Shown here piece after piece: positions 12,669 to 20,244 of a DNA stretch of 64,000 nucleotides. The stretch is from an uncultured archaeon (GTDB taxonomy: Archaea > Micrarchaeota > Micrarchaeia > Micrarchaeales > CABMGC01). The stretch is taken from positions 448,001 through 512,000 of the forward strand of contig CAWBCT010000005.1 of NCBI GenBank assembly GCA_963787445.1. The letters are read 5' to 3'. The notes beneath the pieces were generated by a model. It saw nothing but the letters and a program-made list of their open reading frames with translations, did not search any database and had not been told where the DNA came from. Positions within the stretch are counted from its first letter, which is position 1; each line of letters opens with the position of its first letter. The translations under genes and the position numbers were made by a program.

Positions 12669-14321
12669 TTAATCGTCCAGGTGTCCGCCCATCCCTCCCG
12701 GCATGCCGCCTCCGCCTGCAGGTGCCCTGCCCTTGGAGCTGATCATGTCGTCTATGCGCAGGATCGATGAGGAGGCCTCTGTCGCGCTTGACATCGCCTG
12801 AAGCTTTACCTTCAGCGGCTCAATCACGCCGAGCTTCTCCATGTCCGCCATCTTGTTGTTGTAGACGTCGATACCGAAGTCCCTGCCGTCCTTGCCCTTG
12901 TGCTTGCTGCGCAGTGCGACGAGCGTGTCTATGGCATCCATGCCGGCACTGTCTGCCAGGGTCTTTGGCACAACCTCGAGAGCGTCAGCGAACGCCTGTA
13001 TCGCGAGCTGTTCCCTTCCGCCTACGTCTGTGGCGTACTCGCGCACCTTCATCGAGACATCTATCTCGGTGCTGCCGCCTCCTGTGACATACTTGCCTGA
13101 TTCAACGGCGCTTGCAAGCGCTCCCAGGACGTCCGTCATCGCACGTTCTACTTCGTCGACAGCCTGCTTTGTGCCGCCGCGTATGAACAGCGTTACGCTC
13201 TTGGGATCCTTGCACTTCTCCACGAAGATCATCTGCTCTCCTGAGATCTTTCTCTCCTCGACCATTCCTGCAAAGCCTAGGTCCTTCTGGCTCAGGTCGT
13301 CAAGGCTTGTTACCAGCCTTGCCCCTGTTGCCTTTGCGAGCTTCTCCATGTCGCTCTTCTTGACCCTCCTGACGGCGATTATGCCGTTCTTGGAGAGGAA
13401 GTGCTGCGCCACGTCGTCTATCCCCTTCTGCACGAAGACCACGCTCGCCTTGCTCTTGACGATCTTCTCGACCATGTTCTTTATCATCTTCTCTTCCTGT
13501 TCAAGGAAGGCCTGCATCTGCTCCGGTGAGGTTATCTCGATGCGTGCATCCGTCTCGGTCTTCTCTATCTCAAGTGCAACGTCGAGCAGCGCAATGGCCG
13601 CATTCTTCATGAGCCTCGGCATGCCCTGATGGGCTATCTCCTTGTCGATGACAACCCCGTTTATGAAGCTTGTGTCCTCGATGCTCCCGCCCTCCTTCTT
13701 CTCCAGCTTTATGAAGTCGCGGTCGATGGTCACTTTCGAGCCCTCCTTTATCGAGACCTGCTGCAGCGCCTGCAGCAGAAGGGAGGCGAGGTGCTTCTTC
13801 GTTATGTCGCTGCCTATATTCTTCGAACCCATCGAGATCATGGCGATGCGCTCAAGCTTGTCCTTGTCGTTTATCGTTATGTTCCTGGCCATGCTGTCGA
13901 GAGCGTCCACCGCCTTGATGCGGGCCATCTCATAGCCCTTGATTATCGCTGCGGGAGGGATTCCCTGATCAAGCAGTCCGCCAGCGTTCTTCAGCAGCTC
14001 GCCTGCGATTATCACTGCCGTGGTTGTGCCGTCCCCGACCTCTTTGTCCTGGGTCTTGGCTATCTCCACCATGATCTTCGCGACCGGGTGCTCCACGTTC
14101 ATCTCTTCGAGGATTGTGGCCCCGTCGTTGGTTATGATTATGTCCCCGAGCTCGCTTACGAGCATCTTGTCCATGCCCTTGGGACCGAGCGTGGTCCTCA
14201 CGATGCTTGCTACCGCATAGCCCACCGCTATGTTGGTGCGCTGTGCCTCCTTTCCTATAAGGCGGCTTGCGCCCTCAGGCAATATTAGATACTGCTGTCC
14301 CCCTAGTTGATTGTCTGCCAT
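12669..14321 (-). CDS. Thermosome (group II chaperonin) subunit
   Basis: [31 protein letters not shown]-rich tail. Confidence 0.97.
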
Positions 14322-14491: not shown

Positions 14492-15633
14492 ATGATGCCT
14501 GAAGTCAAGAGAGCTAAAACAGTAAGGACAGTCATGACAACCACGGCAGCCGCAGCGTTTCTTCTAGTTGCTCGACCTGCTGATGCCTGGCAAAGGAGTG
14601 CCGGAGGCGCAGCACCGCGGGCAAACGTTCAGCAAACCCACAATGTTGTAAACAATGGGAGGGGCAATGTGGGCACTTTCAACAGGAACTTTTCACTTAA
14701 TACTCGCGTAAACAACGGATTTAGAGGAAACCTCGGAGTTGCACGCACATTTGGAAACAACAGCGCAACTCGTGTCAGATAACAGAGTGAACTCACACCT
14801 AGCAGGCAACAATTTCAGGCCGAACAGGGGTATAGGTGGGAACACAGATTTTAGACTAGGCCACCGTGGAAATAATGGTATCTTTTTTGGAGGAATTAAC
14901 TACGGATTCGGGCAACGCTATCATCGCGCCTACGGCAGGGGCTGGGGCGGCTGGGGCTGCTACGGCGGCGGATGCTGGCTACCGGAGTACGTCGATAACC
15001 TGATGTGGGGCTGGAACGGCTGGCCTGTGATCTTTGCCGGTGGCGTAGAGTACGCTACCGCAGTTTACTCACCATACATTGTAAATGGAGCCCAGGTCGT
15101 AGTGGAAGGAAACCCAATGGTTACCTACGCCTATGACGTTCCAGGCCGGGGAGCAGTTAATGTTATAGGCCCTCAGCCACAGGTTGTCGATGACCAATCA
15201 ACTTCTCAGATAAACACTTTAACTGCAACCCAGAATGCACAGGAAAGAAAGATAGATGTACTGGCAGCCACACAGGTAGCTGATGAAAGAAAGTTCGGGA
15301 ATGCGATAACCACATTGGCAGAAAATCAGGCAAAACAAGGTAAAGGGTTCCAGAACGAGATTGAGTCCATAACAAAAACCCTGAAGCGCACCGCCGATGT
15401 GATCGGTGCCACTACCGAAAAGGTCAAGGACGACTGCAGATCAGGTTAAGGAACTAGAGAACTCAGATGAATCAGAAGCCAGCATGGAAGATCTGAAAAC
15501 CACTCAACGAAGAGTTCTGGCTGCTCTGATTGGCATCTCTGCCTACGCTCTTGGTGCTACCTTAGTCTCTTTGGGTCTCCACTTTAGGAAGCCTAAAAAG
15601 GCAAACACAGAAGCAGGCCAACCGGCAGGCTGA
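14492..15633 (+). pseudogene. Secreted, C-terminally membrane-anchored protein split over three frames (two +1 frameshifts); pseudogene, recoded gene or sequence error
   Basis: ORFs 14492-14782, 14739-15449 and 15406-15633 step +1 each time; signal peptide (PADA|W), N/G/R-rich region, coiled coil, TM helix and basic tail; 1142 nt = 380 codons + 2. Confidence 0.6.
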
Positions 15634-15639
15634 TGCGGG

Positions 15640-15647
15640 TTTATAAA
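15640..15647 (+). promoter_or_regulatory. TATA box of the half-TBP gene
   Basis: TTTATAAA ending 30 nt before ATG 15677, consistent with a leaderless or short-leader archaeal promoter. Confidence 0.6.
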
Positions 15648-15676
15648 AGTTGCTGTGACAATAGTATCTGAATACC

Positions 15677-15994
15677 ATGGCCAAATCAAAGGGTAGAATG
15701 AGGACCTACGCCTCGCGCAAGATAAACCCCCAGATAAAAGTGCAAAACATCGTGGTCAGCGCAGACCTTCACGCCAACATCGACCTGTTTTCTCTCTCAA
15801 AGAACGTCCGCGAGGTGGACTACGAGCCCGAGCAGTTCCCCGGCGCAATCTTCCGCATAAAGGAGCCCAAGGGCGTGATCATACTTTTCAAGAACGGCAA
15901 GCTTATCTGCACCGGCTCCAACACCACGAAGAACATAAAGATCGTGCTCGAGCGCGCCGCCAAGGTAATCTCAAAGTACACGATAGACGTTTAG
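15677..15994 (+). CDS. Single-repeat (half) TATA-box binding protein-like protein
   Basis: One complete TBP repeat: IKVQNIVVS, IDL, YEPEQFPGAIFR, ILFKNGKLICTG; 105 aa with basic N-terminal tail. Confidence 0.88.
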   Translation: MAKSKGRMRTYASRKINPQIKVQNIVVSADLHANIDLFSLSKNVREVDYEPEQFPGAIFRIKEPKGVIILFKNGKLICTGSNTTKNIKIVLERAAKVISKYTIDV

Positions 15995-17130
15995 ACGCTC
16001 TTTTTCTTCGTCTCTTCCAGCAGCCTGTCGAACTTCCTGAAGAATATCTCCCAGGAGTAGGTGCTCTCAACTCTTTTCCTTGCCTCGTGTCCCATCCTCT
16101 CAGTGAGCGAGGCATTTCCTGACAGCTGAAGCATCCTTTCGGCCATCTCCTTCTCCGAGCCCACAAGGAAGCCCGTCTTCCCGTCCACCACTATGTCCCG
16201 CGGGCCACCCTCATTCACCGATATTACTGGCTTGCCGCTTGCCATGCCCTCCAGCAGCGAGATCCCGTGCTCCTCGTTCTGCCCGGAGAAGAGCATCGCA
16301 GTCGCGGAAGCGTGCAGCCTCCTTATCTCTTTGTCGGAGACGTTGGTCTTCATCTCCACCTTCAGCCCATGCGCGAGCTTCTTGAGCTTGTTGTAGTAGG
16401 CCTGGTGCTCTGGGTCCTTCGACAATGTTCCTGCAAGGACCAGCGAGTAGTTCTTCTTGCTCCTTGCTGAGAACTGCCTGAATGCGTTTATCACGTACTC
16501 CTGGCGCTTGTTGACCACGAAACGGGAGGGGTAGAAAAAGTATTTGTCATAGGCCTCATTGTTAAACTCCGAGGGCTCCACCCCTGGATATATTATTGTT
16601 GAATCGCGCCCATAGAACTTCTTAACATTTGACTGGGTCTTGGCGCTGTTCGCGGCGATGACCTCAATGTTCTTTATCACCCGGTTGGCTATCAGCTTGT
16701 ACATCTTCGTCATGGAGGAGTAGAGGAACTTCTGCCTGCTCGACCTGTGCTTCATCCTGGTCTCGTACAGGTCGTACACCTCTCTTGGAGGGGTGTGGCA
16801 GTACCACAGCACCCGCGCATTCTTGTGGCGGATCCACTCGCTCGGCGAGATGTGCGCATTTATCACGTCGTAATCCTCCTTTAGCTTGAGGTTGTAGAAG
16901 TTGTAGCCGTACCTCAGCCCCTGCGAGGCCCTGTAGGGCAGCATCTCGGCGAAGGGGACGTCCTTCCCGACTATCTTCACATCAACATCCTTGAACTCCG
17001 GGAAGGTGTCCTTCGGGGTGTACTCCAGCGTGTAGATGGGGGCGTCGTAGTGCTGCGCTATCTTCAGGAACACCCTCTCCGCTCCGCCCTTGAGATTTAT
17101 GTACGGTTGGGCAATAATCAGCTTCATCAT
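15991..17130 (-). CDS. Glycosyltransferase family 4
   Basis: GGAERV, YCHTPPR, KRQE, EEHGISLLEGMASG (EX7E). Confidence 0.93.
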   Translation of the reverse strand: MMKLIIAQPYINLKGGAERVFLKIAQHYDAPIYTLEYTPKDTFPEFKDVDVKIVGKDVPFAEMLPYRASQGLRYGYNFYNLKLKEDYDVINAHISPSEWIRHKNARVLWYCHTPPREVYDLYETRMKHRSSRQKFLYSSMTKMYKLIANRVIKNIEVIAANSAKTQSNVKKFYGRDSTIIYPGVEPSEFNNEAYDKYFFYPSRFVVNKRQEYVINAFRQFSARSKKNYSLVLAGTLSKDPEHQAYYNKLKKLAHGLKVEMKTNVSDKEIRRLHASATAMLFSGQNEEHGISLLEGMASGKPVISVNEGGPRDIVVDGKTGFLVGSEKEMAERMLQLSGNASLTERMGHEARKRVESTYSWEIFFRKFDRLLEETKKKSV

Positions 17131-17166: not shown

Positions 17167-20100
17167 TCAGCCAGGTATCGAGTAGTTGTTGTTCACGTAG
17201 CTCGGCTTGGGCACAACCACAGGCAGCGTGCCCGTGAAGTTGTTGAGCTTGAATATCATTATCTGGTTCGTGTCGTTCAGGTTCAACCCCTTGAAGCTCT
17301 CAGGGTACACCAGGGTGAAGCCCGGCAGCTTTCCGAAGAAGAAGCCGCGGTAGTAGTTCGAGTTGTAGAAGTCTGAAGGGGCATTCGTAACCGTGTCGTT
17401 GGGCCCGTTGGGCAGGTAAAGGGCCATGAAGTTTATGTAGAGCGGGCCTCCCTGGGTGAACTGGCGTTCTCCATTATAGAAGAGCTGGCCGGGCGAGATC
17501 ACGATGTTCGTAAGCGTCCCGTTGGGCGTGTAAACCGGAAGCAGGCCCTGGGCATTGGCCGTTGTCTGGACGCAGTAGGTCTGGTTCACCAGCTGGGGTA
17601 TCACCTCGCCCACGGTCAGCACAGCCTTTATCGCAGTTACGGAGGCGTTTGAGAAGCTGCAGTAGTCGGATATCTGCGGGCTTGCGGGTATGTTGATGTC
17701 CACCGGATCGTGGGAGATCTCGCACTGGGAGGTGCCCGTCAGGAACGGCTGGCCGTAGAGCTGCCCCTGCGCACTCGCGTAGGCCTGGCTTGTCTGGTTT
17801 ACGTTTACGCAGGCGAGGAAGTCAAGGGCCGACCACTTTGGTATCAGCTGATCGTCGAACAGCACGTAGCCCGCCTGAACCGAGTCCATGAACGTGCCCA
17901 GGTCCTTGGGCCCGTAGCTGTCGTTCACGCCCAGCACGTAATGGGCGGCGACCTTGTAGTCCAGCGTTGCCACAGAGTTGTCGCCCCTTATGACCGCGTT
18001 GCTGTTGCCGAACCAGTTGATCCAGTCGCCGTAGTCCCACCAGGAGAGTATTCTGGGCGCATAGGGCCCCACATTGGCGCTCATCCAGGCGGTCGCATAG
18101 AGCCAGGCCTGGGGCACGGTGTTGCAGTAAAGGTTCAGCCCTAGGACGTTCGTGTTGTTCGCGTTGGAGAGCGCACTGCAGCTCGGGTTTGCAGCGGCCG
18201 CGAACACGCTGACGAGCGACATGGCCTCCAGTAGCACGACAAGCACGAAGAAGCCGTAGAGCGCGTAGGTGTACCTAATGTCCGTAGCATGGTTCTTCTT
18301 GATGTAAAGCGCCGCCTCGCCGACGAGTATGCCGATTGCAAGTATGTACGCAACCCCGAAGTGCGGCAGGTACTTCACCTCGCTAAGCCCTGCCAATGCG
18401 AGCAGGCCGATTATGACCAGGTTCAGCACGCCCGTCTTCGAGTCGTTCTTTATGATGGTGTACAGCGAAACTCCGCCAAAGAGTATCAGCACCAGGAATA
18501 TTATGAGTGGAAGGCCGAAGGTGCTCGCCCCAATTATGCCAAAACCGTTGCTTCCGAAGTTGAAGGTAATTCCTGTTATCGCATACTCCTGCACTGTCAT
18601 GAACAGCGGTATGGACGGGGTGGTGAAGTGCACGCTGAGGCTATAGTAGTCCTTGACCGGCTTCCCCAGCGGGGTGAAGAGTATGAGCAGTATCACAAGG
18701 AGTGCCAGCACGCCGAGCCATTCATAATAGGTTATCTTTTCAACCTTCTTTATTATGCCGTACTTCTTTGCCAGCGTCGGCACGTACTCAAAGACCGCGA
18801 CTATGAGGAGCGCAAAGAGCGGGAACGCCACGATCGTAGGTATGCCCACCACCGACGGGATGCTGTCCGTTATCGCAGTCGTGTAGGGGCTGTAGAGTAT
18901 GTAGAAGAGCACAATGACGCCTATGACTATGGCGTTCATCTTGTAGAATGAGAGGCTGTTCTTGTTTCTCAGCACGTCGATGAGGCCCTGGACCACTATG
19001 TACAGGGCAAGTATTCCCGCATCGACGGTGTAGTAGTGGGATCCGAGGAAGGTCGAGACGAATGCTATGCCGGCAAGTATCGCATAGCGCTTCTCGTCCG
19101 GGTTTCTCACCGCCAGAAGGTATGTGGCGAAGAAGAAGAACAGCGCAAAGATGCCCCAGGGCTCGAGCAGCTGCTCTCCAGCGATGAACGTTGAGATGAG
19201 CGTGGGCATGGCCGCAGCGAGCGCGGCGGCTATGAGCGCAGGATACTCGCCGTACTCGTGATAAACGTACATGAACACCACGAAGACCAGCAGCGCAGCG
19301 GTTATGGGAGGGTAGACGCTGCTGGTGGTGCTGAGCAGCGAGGTGCTGATCTGCGCTGTTCCCGGCGCGCCCGCAGCTATCTGGTACCAGTAGGCCTCAA
19401 GGTAGGGCACTATGGGCTGTATGCTTTGAATCGTCCCGTTCACCAGGGTCGGCCAGGCCGAGTGGCTGTAGACCAGCTGGTAACCGTAGGTAAGTATGTA
19501 CTGGGTGCTGATCATGTCGAAGTAGGGGTCGAACTCGAAGAAGTGCGTGACCGAGCTCGGCACCGAGAGGTTCACTACGCGCGAGGCGAAAGAGACCAGC
19601 ATCAGCAGGAGAAGCAGCATCCAGACGATGGGCATGTTCGACTTCTTCGTGTCCTCCCTGGAGATGAGCCCGTACTCCTCGCGCTCATGCTCCTCGTACA
19701 GCCTGCGCTCCTGCCCGGCGTGGGTCTTCTTGACACTCTCGATCTCCTCAGAGCCGGCCCCGCTCTCCCTCAGGAGCCTCATCTCATTTTCATGGCCTTC
19801 CGCCAGCGTCTTCTCCTCCCTCTCGTGCTCGCGGAGTATCTTCATGTCAACTCCGAGGTGGGAGATCTTCGCGCGCAGTTCAGAGACCCGCTGCCTGTAA
19901 TCCGCGCTCGTGCTCCTGTACTCCTTTCCGGAGCCGTTGCGCCTGATTAGCGAGGACCAGTAGGCCGGGTCAAGGGCGCCCTGCCAGTAGCATAGGATGA
20001 GCCCTATTATCGTAAGTATGATGACGTTGATGTTGTAGAGGCCCGCTGAGAAGCTGAAGAAGCTGCTTACGGGTATGAGGTAGGCCTCTGCCCAGATCAT

Positions 20101-20244
20101 CGTTGGCGGGAAGATCAGGCCGAAGATGAAGCCGAGAATCCCGATCTCGATTATGTGCATGTTTGTTTTCTTAAGAAGCGCAAGAGCTAGGAAGAAGCCC
20201 GGAACCATTATCGCCAGGAAGGCTATTATAATGTCTAATATCAT
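17167..20244 (-). CDS. aglB: Oligosaccharyltransferase AglB (STT3 family) with N-terminal extension
   Basis: EFDPYF, TVQE, SWWDYGDWI, DNS; about 16 TM helices. Confidence 0.92.
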   Translation of the reverse strand: MILDIIIAFLAIMVPGFFLALALLKKTNMHIIEIGILGFIFGLIFPPTMIWAEAYLIPVSSFFSFSAGLYNINVIILTIIGLILCYWQGALDPAYWSSLIRRNGSGKEYRSTSADYRQRVSELRAKISHLGVDMKILREHEREEKTLAEGHENEMRLLRESGAGSEEIESVKKTHAGQERRLYEEHEREEYGLISREDTKKSNMPIVWMLLLLLMLVSFASRVVNLSVPSSVTHFFEFDPYFDMISTQYILTYGYQLVYSHSAWPTLVNGTIQSIQPIVPYLEAYWYQIAAGAPGTAQISTSLLSTTSSVYPPITAALLVFVVFMYVYHEYGEYPALIAAALAAAMPTLISTFIAGEQLLEPWGIFALFFFFATYLLAVRNPDEKRYAILAGIAFVSTFLGSHYYTVDAGILALYIVVQGLIDVLRNKNSLSFYKMNAIVIGVIVLFYILYSPYTTAITDSIPSVVGIPTIVAFPLFALLIVAVFEYVPTLAKKYGIIKKVEKITYYEWLGVLALLVILLILFTPLGKPVKDYYSLSVHFTTPSIPLFMTVQEYAITGITFNFGSNGFGIIGASTFGLPLIIFLVLILFGGVSLYTIIKNDSKTGVLNLVIIGLLALAGLSEVKYLPHFGVAYILAIGILVGEAALYIKKNHATDIRYTYALYGFFVLVVLLEAMSLVSVFAAAANPSCSALSNANNTNVLGLNLYCNTVPQAWLYATAWMSANVGPYAPRILSWWDYGDWINWFGNSNAVIRGDNSVATLDYKVAAHYVLGVNDSYGPKDLGTFMDSVQAGYVLFDDQLIPKWSALDFLACVNVNQTSQAYASAQGQLYGQPFLTGTSQCEISHDPVDINIPASPQISDYCSFSNASVTAIKAVLTVGEVIPQLVNQTYCVQTTANAQGLLPVYTPNGTLTNIVISPGQLFYNGERQFTQGGPLYINFMALYLPNGPNDTVTNAPSDFYNSNYYRGFFFGKLPGFTLVYPESFKGLNLNDTNQIMIFKLNNFTGTLPVVVPKPSYVNNNYSIPG

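What the first reader, a model, noticed from the sequence alone, without database searches (positions are those of the whole stretch)
15640..15994. Stand-alone single-repeat ('half') TATA-binding protein
Seen: a 105-aa ORF containing exactly one TBP repeat. It keeps the Asn of NIV, both Phe residues that kink DNA (EQFPG, ILFKNG) and the TG motif, and has a basic N-terminal tail. It has a TATA box 30 nt upstream and its stop overlaps the stop of the convergent GT4 gene, so there is no room for a second repeat on either side, and the frame is clean. Known: archaeal and eukaryotic TBPs are about 180 aa with two direct repeats forming a pseudo-symmetric saddle, thought to derive from a duplicated single-repeat ancestor. 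Inference: this protein could homodimerise into a fully symmetric saddle, acting as an alternative TBP, a repressor, a chromatin protein or a TBP/TFB decoy. It could also be one half of a split TBP. I regard it as the best candidate for an undescribed system in this window.
Basis: partly seen in the sequence, partly recalled or inferred. Interest (0 to 1): 0.85.

Follow-up and report, generated by a model that had tools for sequence, protein, structure and literature searches.

The report
Single-lobe TATA-binding protein paralogue in Micrarchaeota
This 105-residue gene is a real, conserved half-size TATA-binding protein, and it lies in a group of tiny archaea where no normal two-lobed version was found, so these cells probably build this core transcription factor from separate half-proteins.

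Summary
ORF 15677..15994 (+) encodes 105 aa with exactly one complete TBP repeat (Pfam 85.5 bits). Its model superposes on TBP lobes at 1.4 Å.

It is not a fragment. Orthologues are also ~100-130 aa, pairwise dN/dS has a median of 0.13, and 19 of 23 loci keep the convergent GT4 neighbour.

The genome holds only one other TBP lobe, a 111-aa paralogue "A" 175 kb away with 51% identity. A sits beside rpl21e, the position that the normal TBP gene occupies in related families. The window gene, "B", is therefore an accessory lobe.

The pattern extends across the phylum:
- Three Micrarchaeota orders carry only single-lobe TBP genes.
- One order carries two-lobe genes.

A and B are not the N and C halves of a classical TBP (AU p = 0.031).

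Best reading: B dimerises, with itself or with A, into a TATA-binding saddle that recruits the single TFB. Dimerisation and DNA binding were not shown here. Single-lobe TBP-like proteins are in print, but I found none described as the only TBP of a lineage.

The parts
15640..15647 (+). TATA-like box TTTATAAA (palindromic), 37 nt from its first base to the ATG
   Evidence: Read directly. A T[TA]TA[TA]A hexamer starts 33-38 nt before a candidate ATG in 13 of the 23 B-type loci listed. Promoter function is inferred, not shown.
15677..15994 (+). B-type single-lobe TBP gene, 105 aa: basic N-tail (residues 1-19), one TBP lobe (residues 19-101), no acidic C-tail
   Evidence: ORF. PF00352 85.5 bits. 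PDB TBP matches. AF2 model pLDDT 86.3 with strand/helix order S1-H1-S2-S3-S4-S5-H2. Foldseek: the 44 matches with E <= 0.001 are all TBP chains, TMq 0.68-0.77. dN/dS median 0.132. Orthologues of 90-150 aa at 49-87% identity.
15991..17130 (-). Convergent GT4 glycosyltransferase gene whose stop overlaps the TBP stop; conserved synteny anchor of the B locus
   Evidence: ORF. PF00534 104.7 bits and PF13439 41 bits. An opposite-strand GT4 homologue lies within the fetched flank in 19 of 23 B-type loci, from families f1 and f3. L091 and L055 were inspected.

Best explanation
The ORF is a functional accessory paralogue ('B') of a single-lobe TATA-binding protein. In this lineage the general TBP ('A', 111 aa, 175 kb away beside rpl21e) is itself single-lobed.

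One lobe is half a saddle, so B must pair with another lobe to give the ten-stranded DNA-binding saddle. The partner could be a second B or an A. The dimer would bind and bend TATA-like boxes and present a YEPEQFPG stirrup to the genome's single TFB. Transcription polarity would come from TFB-BRE contacts rather than from TBP asymmetry.

B is not essential to the lineage, because related genera keep only A. It most likely provides an alternative saddle with an altered DNA-facing surface (Q, F and R where A has E, C and K) for a subset of promoters or conditions.

Shown here: gene integrity, fold, conservation, purifying selection, synteny, paralogy, and no detectable two-lobe TBP. Inferred: dimerisation, TATA binding, TFB recruitment, and any promoter specialisation.
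For: Identity and fold:
- PF00352 85.5 bits over the whole profile.
- Both lobes of archaeal TBPs align to it, with N, F, F and TG conserved.
- AF2 pLDDT 86.3. Foldseek gives rmsd 1.4 Å over 84-85 residues to human, yeast and plant TBP lobes.

Functional gene:
- dN/dS median 0.132, maximum 0.25, in the 45 of 253 B-B pairs with 0.05 < dS < 2. A-type gives 0.137 in 177 of 741 pairs.
- 20 invariant columns, including Y49-I58 (YEPEQFPGAI) and L70-K75 (LFKNGK), in 63 aligned sequences.
- The B-GT4 convergent arrangement is kept in 19 of 23 loci across two families.

No two-lobe TBP:
- Only two lobes in the own genome.
- In 41 of 41 genomes of the order, all 74 hits lie at separate places. 33 genomes have two hits and 8 have one.
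- A two-lobe query at E <= 1e-40 hits 0 of 82 f1 genomes (and not G000) and 1 of 94 f3 genomes.

A is the positional TBP:
- An opposite-strand rpl21e neighbour is found at 36 of 39 A loci, 11 of 13 sole single-lobe loci of other families, and 14 of 14 two-lobe TBP loci of the two-lobe order.

A alone suffices:
- 15 of 26 f1 genomes in the phylum sample have one lobe only, including the single-contig genomes G060 and G064. The 8 one-lobe f1 genomes whose loci were fetched (L003, L004, L005, L011, L014, L026, L056, L057) are A-type by phmmer.

B is a paralogue of A:
- The B clade has 98/100 support. A+B group together at 76.6/56 in IQ-TREE and 0.977 in FastTree.

One TFB:
- One two-cyclin TFB gene (two PF00382 matches) in 37 of 41 genomes of the order.

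Polarity from TFB-BRE:
- Stated in the review PMC7289017 (passage read), which cites Bell et al. 1999.
Against: - No experiment or expression data. No RNA run was listed for the locus.
- Dimerisation was not demonstrated.
- B was not seen alone in any complete genome. G015, 88% complete, shows only B. This co-occurrence with A also fits an obligate A:B pair.
- B differs from A at eight positions that are each at least 80% conserved within their group. Several are core residues, so B could have lost self-pairing.
- The own genome is only 82% complete and shows signs of indel errors.
- The A+B grouping has weak support in the ML tree (76.6/56).
Confidence: 0.6

Rival explanations
1. Obligate heterodimer. 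A and B work only as an A:B pair, a two-lobe TBP encoded in trans, with B playing the C-lobe role (TFB side) and A the N-lobe role.
For: - B always co-occurs with A in well-assembled genomes. All 15 f3 genomes have two lobes.
- B leans towards the C lobe on an N/C-lobe HMM discriminator: median +3.0 bits, 22 of 23 positive. A leans slightly towards the N lobe: median -1.2, 8 of 39 positive.
- B-specific Q16, F52, R53 and V60 match the C-lobe consensus, while A has the N-lobe-like E16.
- There is only one TFB per genome.
Against: - 15 of 26 f1 genomes carry one lobe only, two of them on single contigs, so A works without B.
- Whole orders run on one lobe (55 of 61 genomes with a match, one over-threshold lobe each except G417).
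- The N/C leanings are small next to classical lobes (+10.7 and -7.5 bits).
- The topology with A among N lobes and B among C lobes is rejected (delta lnL 63.6, AU p = 0.031).
Confidence: 0.22
2. Regulator or decoy. B does not nucleate initiation. It titrates A (forming poisoned dimers), TFB or TATA boxes, and so acts as a repressor or chromatin-like protein.
For: - B is dispensable in several genera.
- It has a conserved Lys/Arg-rich tail (57 of 59) and lacks the acidic C-tail seen in the genome's own A.
- It has a distinct helix-2 surface.
Against: - Every hallmark needed for TATA binding and for the TFB-facing stirrup is invariant in B orthologues. A pure decoy would not need all of them.
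- There is no direct evidence either way.
Confidence: 0.12
3. Artefact. The ORF is a truncated or decaying fragment of a two-lobe TBP, or an assembly collapse of a tandem repeat.
For: The assembly shows probable indel errors elsewhere: a 1-base difference at 15428 and a frameshifted TFB.
Against: - The same ~100-130 aa gene recurs in dozens of independent assemblies.
- dN/dS is 0.13.
- Short-read contigs match the ORF without indels.
- Synteny is conserved.
- The flanks hold other genes.
Confidence: 0.01

Closest known systems
Canonical archaeal TBP (two-lobe, ~180-190 aa; e.g. PDB 2z8u, 1mp9, 1pcz/1ais)
   Same: - Same domain family, with 36-40% identity per lobe in structure alignments and E 1e-34 to 1e-36 by sequence.
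- Same conserved Asn, Phe, Phe and Thr-Gly positions and the same YEPEQFPG stirrup.
- Presumably the same job with TFB.
   Different: - One lobe per polypeptide, so the saddle has to be intermolecular.
- No N/C-lobe differentiation.
- A basic 19-residue N-tail and no acidic C-tail.
Halobacterial TbpA and the Thermococcales ~95-aa monopartite TBP-domain proteins (Brindefalk et al. 2013, PMC3597702, section 24 read)
   Same: Stand-alone proteins made of a single TBP domain with no adjacent second domain.
   Different: - According to that paper, those proteins coexist with one or more full-length TBPs. The Thermococcales group is highly diverged from TBP, and TbpA is non-essential.
- Here no two-lobe TBP is detectable in the genome or its order.
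- The lobes score 85-108 bits on the TBP model.
- The partner lobe A sits at the orthologous TBP locus.
Two-lobe TBPs of the sister Micrarchaeota order (families f4, f5, f6, f8, f9, f13, f19, f21 and others)
   Same: - Same clade of lobes (88.9/83).
- Same rpl21e-adjacent locus as paralogue A.
- Same undifferentiated lobe character (mN 0.0, mC +1.5 bits).
   Different: - They are fused. 59 of 61 sampled genomes show two adjacent full matches in one 185-264 aa frame.
- Their N and C lobes are 50-72% identical to each other.
Multiple TBP paralogues of haloarchaea (recalled; mentioned in PMC7289017)
   Same: Extra TBP copies beside a housekeeping one, thought to diversify promoter usage.
   Different: Those are complete two-lobe proteins and often come with multiple TFBs. 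Here the paralogue is a half-protein and there is one TFB.

Membership tests
TBP domain family (Pfam PF00352) | Sequence match to the TBP repeat profile above the curated cut-off | tested here: met
   85.5 bits against a cut-off of 22.9, covering profile positions 1-85 of 85.
TBP domain family (Pfam PF00352) | TBP lobe fold (S1-H1-S2-S3-S4-S5-H2) | tested here: met
   AF2 model pLDDT 86.3 with that order of elements. The 44 Foldseek PDB matches with E <= 0.001 are all TBPs, with rmsd 1.4-1.7 Å over 84-85 residues for the best.
Canonical TBP (general transcription factor) | Two tandem repeats in one polypeptide forming a pseudo-symmetric saddle | tested here: not met
   A 105-aa ORF with one repeat. 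The only other lobe in the genome is 175 kb away.
Canonical TBP (general transcription factor) | Conserved DNA-contact residues (Asn in S1, two Phe, Thr-Gly) | tested here: met
   N24, F54, F71 and T79-G80 align with the equivalent residues of both lobes of 2z8u, 1mp9 and 1pcz. N24 and T79 are at least 90% conserved, and F54, F71 and G80 are invariant, in 63 sequences. Their roles are recalled from TBP-DNA structures.
Canonical TBP (general transcription factor) | Binds and bends TATA DNA and recruits TFB and RNAP | not testable with these tools
The stirrup motif YEPEQFPG is invariant and one TFB gene is present.
Monopartite TBP-domain proteins as described in print (TbpA; Thermococcales group) | Single TBP domain with no adjacent second domain | tested here: met
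Monopartite TBP-domain proteins as described in print (TbpA; Thermococcales group) | Accessory to a full-length two-lobe TBP in the same genome | tested here: not met
   No two-lobe TBP in G000, in the 41 genomes of the order, or in 0 of 82 f1 and 93 of 94 f3 genomes with a two-lobe query.
Split gene (fission of a classical two-lobe TBP into N-half and C-half) | The two genes are the descendants of the N lobe and the C lobe respectively | tested here: not met
   A and B group together. The constrained topology is rejected (AU p = 0.031). Discriminator scores are -1.2 and +3.0 bits, against -7.5 and +10.7 for classical lobes. The evidence is moderate because the alignment has only 99 columns.

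The most novel reading that the evidence does not exclude
Most Micrarchaeota run all transcription on a ~100-residue homodimeric TBP, a living equivalent of the hypothetical pre-duplication ancestor of TBP. The bipartite state has since been re-invented in this phylum in two ways. One order did it in cis, through a secondary tandem duplication-fusion at the rpl21e locus, which gives N and C lobes that are 50-72% identical and lack the classical N/C signature. The window's order did it in trans, through paralogue B, which is drifting towards C-lobe character. On this reading the TBP lobe duplication is not a single ancient event but a recurrent one.
Probability: 0.4. Interest if true: 0.9.

Novelty: new variant of a known kind. 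Interest (0 to 1): 0.8.

Why it matters
TBP is required for transcription initiation in archaea and eukaryotes. Its two-lobe saddle is the textbook case of a protein thought to descend from a homodimer by duplication and fusion.

If single-lobe proteins are the only TBPs of whole archaeal orders, that homodimeric stage can be studied in natural proteins. The questions then become testable:
- How does a symmetric saddle bind TATA boxes?
- How does TFB choose a side?
- What does lobe asymmetry add?
- How easily does fusion recur?

The A/B pair of this genome adds a natural test of whether asymmetry can be supplied by two genes.

There is also a practical point. NCBI records name several of these proteins 'hypothetical protein'. 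Length-based expectations for TBP could therefore mis-score them as fragments.

Tried and rejected
Homodimer prediction. Complex prediction with B x 2 copies (alignment A1) returned 'no answer': score 0.37, 0.36, 0.37 against a mark of 0.42, with the three controls at 0.00. This is neither support nor evidence against binding. The A+B pair was not submitted because the cap is one job.

Expression. No RNA holder was listed for the locus.

DNA contigs. Parts of 15385-15576 lack cover in runs X2-X4. I draw no conclusion from that.

Promoter symmetry. A crude EM on 875 crude gene starts of G000 gave the motif tTWWAWAtcT in about 32% of upstream regions. Its core correlates with its own reverse complement (r = 0.85 at offset -2). 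There is no control genome and the start calls are crude, so I do not use it as evidence.

dS between lobes. N-versus-C dS inside the two-lobe genes is 0.37-2.8, and the own A-versus-B pair gives 0.80. NG86 dS seems compressed by codon bias. Only the lowest values (L072 0.37, L090 0.45) hint at recent exchange between lobes, which is not decisive.

AU test of a single ancient duplication. Forcing all N lobes against all C lobes gives delta lnL 49.1, AU p = 0.064, KH 0.040, SH 0.041. This is borderline, and the classical outgroup lobes did not separate cleanly in that 60-row tree.

Fused N-terminal domain. The long open frames upstream of B in L091, L055 and L087 were considered as a possible fusion. 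Searches show low-complexity read-through without a credible start, so I rejected this.

Taxon names for P0050, P0052 and P0053 could not be obtained.

Supplementary files of PMC3597702 and PMC7221094 were not seen. Their lists of single-lobe TBPs may include Micrarchaeota sequences.

Full report
**The object.** ORF 15677..15994 (+) encodes 105 aa. Pfam finds one complete TBP repeat: PF00352, 85.5 bits, residues 19-101 covering profile positions 1-85 of 85. phmmer against PDB sequences returns 35 TBPs. The best are archaeal (2z8u E 2.2e-36, 1mp9, 1pcz), and the query aligns equally to their N and C lobes. The Asn of QNIVVS, the Phe of EQFPG, the Phe of ILFKNG and the TG of CTGS align with the equivalent residues of both lobes. 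That these contact DNA is recalled from TBP-DNA structures.

An AF2 model built on 63 sequences has pLDDT 86.3 and the lobe topology S1-H1-S2-S3-S4-S5-H2. All 44 Foldseek PDB matches with E <= 0.001 are TBPs, with rmsd 1.4 Å over 84-85 residues for the best. A palindromic TTTATAAA lies at 15640-15647. The stop codon overlaps that of a convergent GT4 glycosyltransferase gene at 15991..17130.

**It is a gene, not a remnant.**
- The word-indexed search lists about 80 proteins of 90-150 aa at 66-92% identity among its best 120. NCBI names several of them 'hypothetical protein [Candidatus Micrarchaeota/Micrarchaeia archaeon]', and JGI names them TBP.
- In a 63-sequence alignment, YEPEQFPGAI and LFKNGK are invariant.
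- Pairwise NG86 dN/dS among B-type orthologues has a median of 0.132 and a maximum of 0.25, in the 45 of 253 pairs with 0.05 < dS < 2.
- An opposite-strand GT4 homologue is present in 19 of 23 B loci from two families (examples).
- The basic N-tail is net positive in 57 of 59 orthologues.
- Short-read contigs of four runs from one study, possibly the source sample, cover 15577-16080 with substitutions only.

**The second lobe.** The own assembly (1.05 Mb, 19 contigs, 82% complete) contains exactly two TBP-domain matches: this ORF and a 111-aa ORF 175 kb upstream on the same contig. I call them B and A. They are 51% identical over 89 residues. A lineage-specific HMM run with --max on all 13,135 six-frame segments of at least 40 aa finds nothing else below E 0.3. 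A is preceded by TTTATAAAGG twice and lies next to an opposite-strand ribosomal protein L21e gene.

**Distribution.**

| Group | Genomes sampled | Result |
|---|---|---|
| Own order (f1, f2, f3) | 41 | All 74 PF00352 matches at separate places, in open frames of 100-185 aa (one of 274). 33 genomes have two matches, 8 have one. |
| Own order, two-lobe query (P0050, E <= 1e-40) | 401 across the phylum | Hits 0 of 82 f1 (and not G000), 0 of 1 f2, 1 of 94 f3. |
| Order of G164 (11 families) | 61 | 55 have a match. One over-threshold lobe per genome, in frames of 93-182 aa, except G417 with two. |
| Order of G044 (9 families) | 29 | 28 have a match, with 1-3 separate single lobes each. |
| Order of G082 (12 families) | 61 | All 61 have matches. 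59 show two adjacent full matches in one frame of 185-264 aa. G139 and G048 are fragmentary. |

The single f3 hit is G159, on an 8.4-kb contig. That gene lacks the rpl21e neighbour and has a classical N/C signature, so it looks foreign to the bin.

In short, three orders show only single-lobe TBP genes and one order shows two-lobe genes. Families f12 and f16 are also single-lobe, but I did not determine their order.

**Which lobe is 'the' TBP.** phmmer scores split the order's lobes into an A group and a B group. An opposite-strand rpl21e neighbour is found at:
- 36 of 39 A loci;
- 11 of 13 sole single-lobe loci of other families (the two without it are extra paralogues of G122);
- 14 of 14 two-lobe TBP loci.

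A is therefore the positional orthologue of the TBP gene, and B is a relocated paralogue. In the phylum sample, 15 of 26 f1 genomes have one lobe only, including the single-contig genomes G060 and G064. The eight one-lobe f1 genomes whose loci I fetched are A-type. So A works without B. Because the B-GT4 arrangement occurs in both f1 and f3, B predates their split and was later lost in some f1 genera.

**Paralogue or split gene?**
- FastTree on 352 lobes (99 columns): A (37) + B (23) + 4 unnamed singles form a clade at 0.977, and B has 1.0.
- IQ-TREE LG+G4 on 84 lobes: all Micrarchaeota lobes form one clade (88.9/83), B has 98/100, and A+B has 76.6/56.
- AU test on 60 lobes: forcing A with the N lobes and B with the C lobes costs 63.6 lnL, AU p = 0.031. 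Forcing all N lobes against all C lobes costs 49.1 lnL, AU p = 0.064, KH 0.040.

I also trained HMMs on the N and C lobes of 34 classical two-lobe TBPs, which separate 33 held-out proteins well. The scores are C-model bits minus N-model bits.

| Lobe set | Median score (bits) | Positive |
|---|---|---|
| Held-out classical C lobes | +10.7 | 33 of 33 |
| Held-out classical N lobes | -7.5 | 2 of 33 |
| A | -1.2 | 8 of 39 |
| B | +3.0 | 22 of 23 |
| Sole singles of other families | +0.9 | 7 of 13 |
| N lobes of the two-lobe order | 0.0 | 7 of 14 |
| C lobes of the two-lobe order | +1.5 | 9 of 14 |

Micrarchaeota lobes are thus undifferentiated, and B is only mildly C-like. Its group-specific Q16, F52, R53 and V60 match the C-lobe consensus, whereas every other Micrarchaeota group has E, L or C, and K. 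Inside the two-lobe genes the N and C lobes are 50-72% identical, against a median of 44.7% in the sampled two-lobe TBPs. Some unnamed proteins reach 78-88%.

Together this favours a single-lobe, or fully homogenised, ancestor for the phylum's TBPs, with secondary fusion in one order. With 99 columns and no species tree this remains an inference.

**Mechanism.** One lobe cannot form the saddle, so the working unit must be a dimer. That A-type or sole lobes homodimerise follows from genomes that hold nothing else. This is an inference from gene content and was not shown.

B could form B2 or A:B. The genome data do not decide between them, and my one complex job gave no verdict (see Tried and rejected).

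There is one TFB gene per genome in 37 of 41 genomes of the order, and both A and B carry the identical stirrup VDYEPEQFPGAI. [quoted passage not shown] 1999).

I commit to this reading: B is an accessory lobe that forms alternative saddles with a more C-lobe-like, less acidic DNA face (confidence 0.6). The rivals are an obligate A:B pair (0.22), a decoy or regulator (0.12) and an artefact (0.01).

**Literature.** Brindefalk et al. 2013 (PMC3597702; abstract, passages and section 24 read) describe monopartite TBP-domain proteins: halobacterial TbpA and divergent ~95-aa Thermococcales proteins. Each is listed beside a full-length TBP. Ravarani et al. [quoted passage not shown] A DPANN comparative paper (PMC8407392, passages read) simply scores TBP as present. 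Eight searches found nothing on lineages lacking a two-lobe TBP.

**Verdict.** It is a new variant of a known kind: single-lobe TBPs as the sole TBPs of a lineage, with a paralogous second lobe. Interest is high.

Noticed in passing
G000:C5:575677-576593 (locus L092:878-1793), outside the window: The genome's only TFB gene is in two frames. A 228-aa ORF holds the Zn-ribbon and first cyclin repeat, and an overlapping 85-aa ORF holds the second cyclin repeat. Relatives mostly have one intact frame of about 340-430 aa (one contig-end frame of 228 aa). This is probably an assembly indel, less likely a real split.
   Followed up: partly
window 14739-15633: ORFs 14739..15449 and 15406..15633 overlap on the same strand, and a short-read contig (X1) lacks one base at 15428. 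They are probably one gene with a C-terminal membrane helix, broken by an indel in the window. No Pfam family was found.
   Followed up: partly
L069, L070, L071 (G122:C1, three places); G140, G165, G359, G399: In family f7, which lies in another order, genomes carry one to three separate single-lobe TBP genes. Only one of the three in G122 lies beside rpl21e. This is an independent expansion of single-lobe paralogues.
   Followed up: partly
L083 (G159:C43, 8.4-kb contig) and L085 (G054:C77, 3.7-kb contig): These are two-lobe TBP genes inside bins of the single-lobe order. They have low similarity to A and B, a classical N/C signature and no rpl21e neighbour. They look like foreign contigs in the bins.
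   Followed up: partly
proteins P0050, P0052, P0053, P0045: These are two-lobe TBPs whose N and C lobes are 72-88% identical to each other. P0050's nearest genome hits are f4 TBPs at 72% identity. That suggests very recent duplication or conversion between lobes. Source names could not be obtained.
   Followed up: partly
L091:589-1509, L055:841-1506, L087: In some f3 genomes the open frame continues 80-230 codons upstream of the B lobe, through low-complexity Ser/Pro/Leu-rich read-through, with no ATG near the lobe. The true start codon is unclear.
   Followed up: partly
window 17167-20244 (-): A 1025-aa multi-pass membrane protein lies next to the GT4 gene. It contains a WWDYG motif, which I recall as typical of AglB/STT3 oligosaccharyltransferases, but it has no Pfam hit at E <= 0.001.
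   Followed up: partly
G000 genome-wide, upstream of crude gene starts; also window 15662-15669: 8-mers such as TAAATATC, ATATCTGA and TCTGAAAA are among the most frequent 19-47 nt upstream of crude starts. TATCTGAA also lies between the TATA-like box and the ATG of the B gene. It may be a promoter-proximal element.
   Followed up: no
G285:C12:19300-19539, G195:C12:16301-16498, G224:C28:8329-8526: Weak extra TBP-like lobes (42, 25.5 and 21.5 bits) occur in ~105-114 aa frames in genomes of the G044 order. They may be divergent single-lobe paralogues.
   Followed up: no
window 12669-14321 (-): A 550-aa ORF whose sequence looks like a thermosome/group II chaperonin subunit. This is judged by eye and was not searched.
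   Followed up: no
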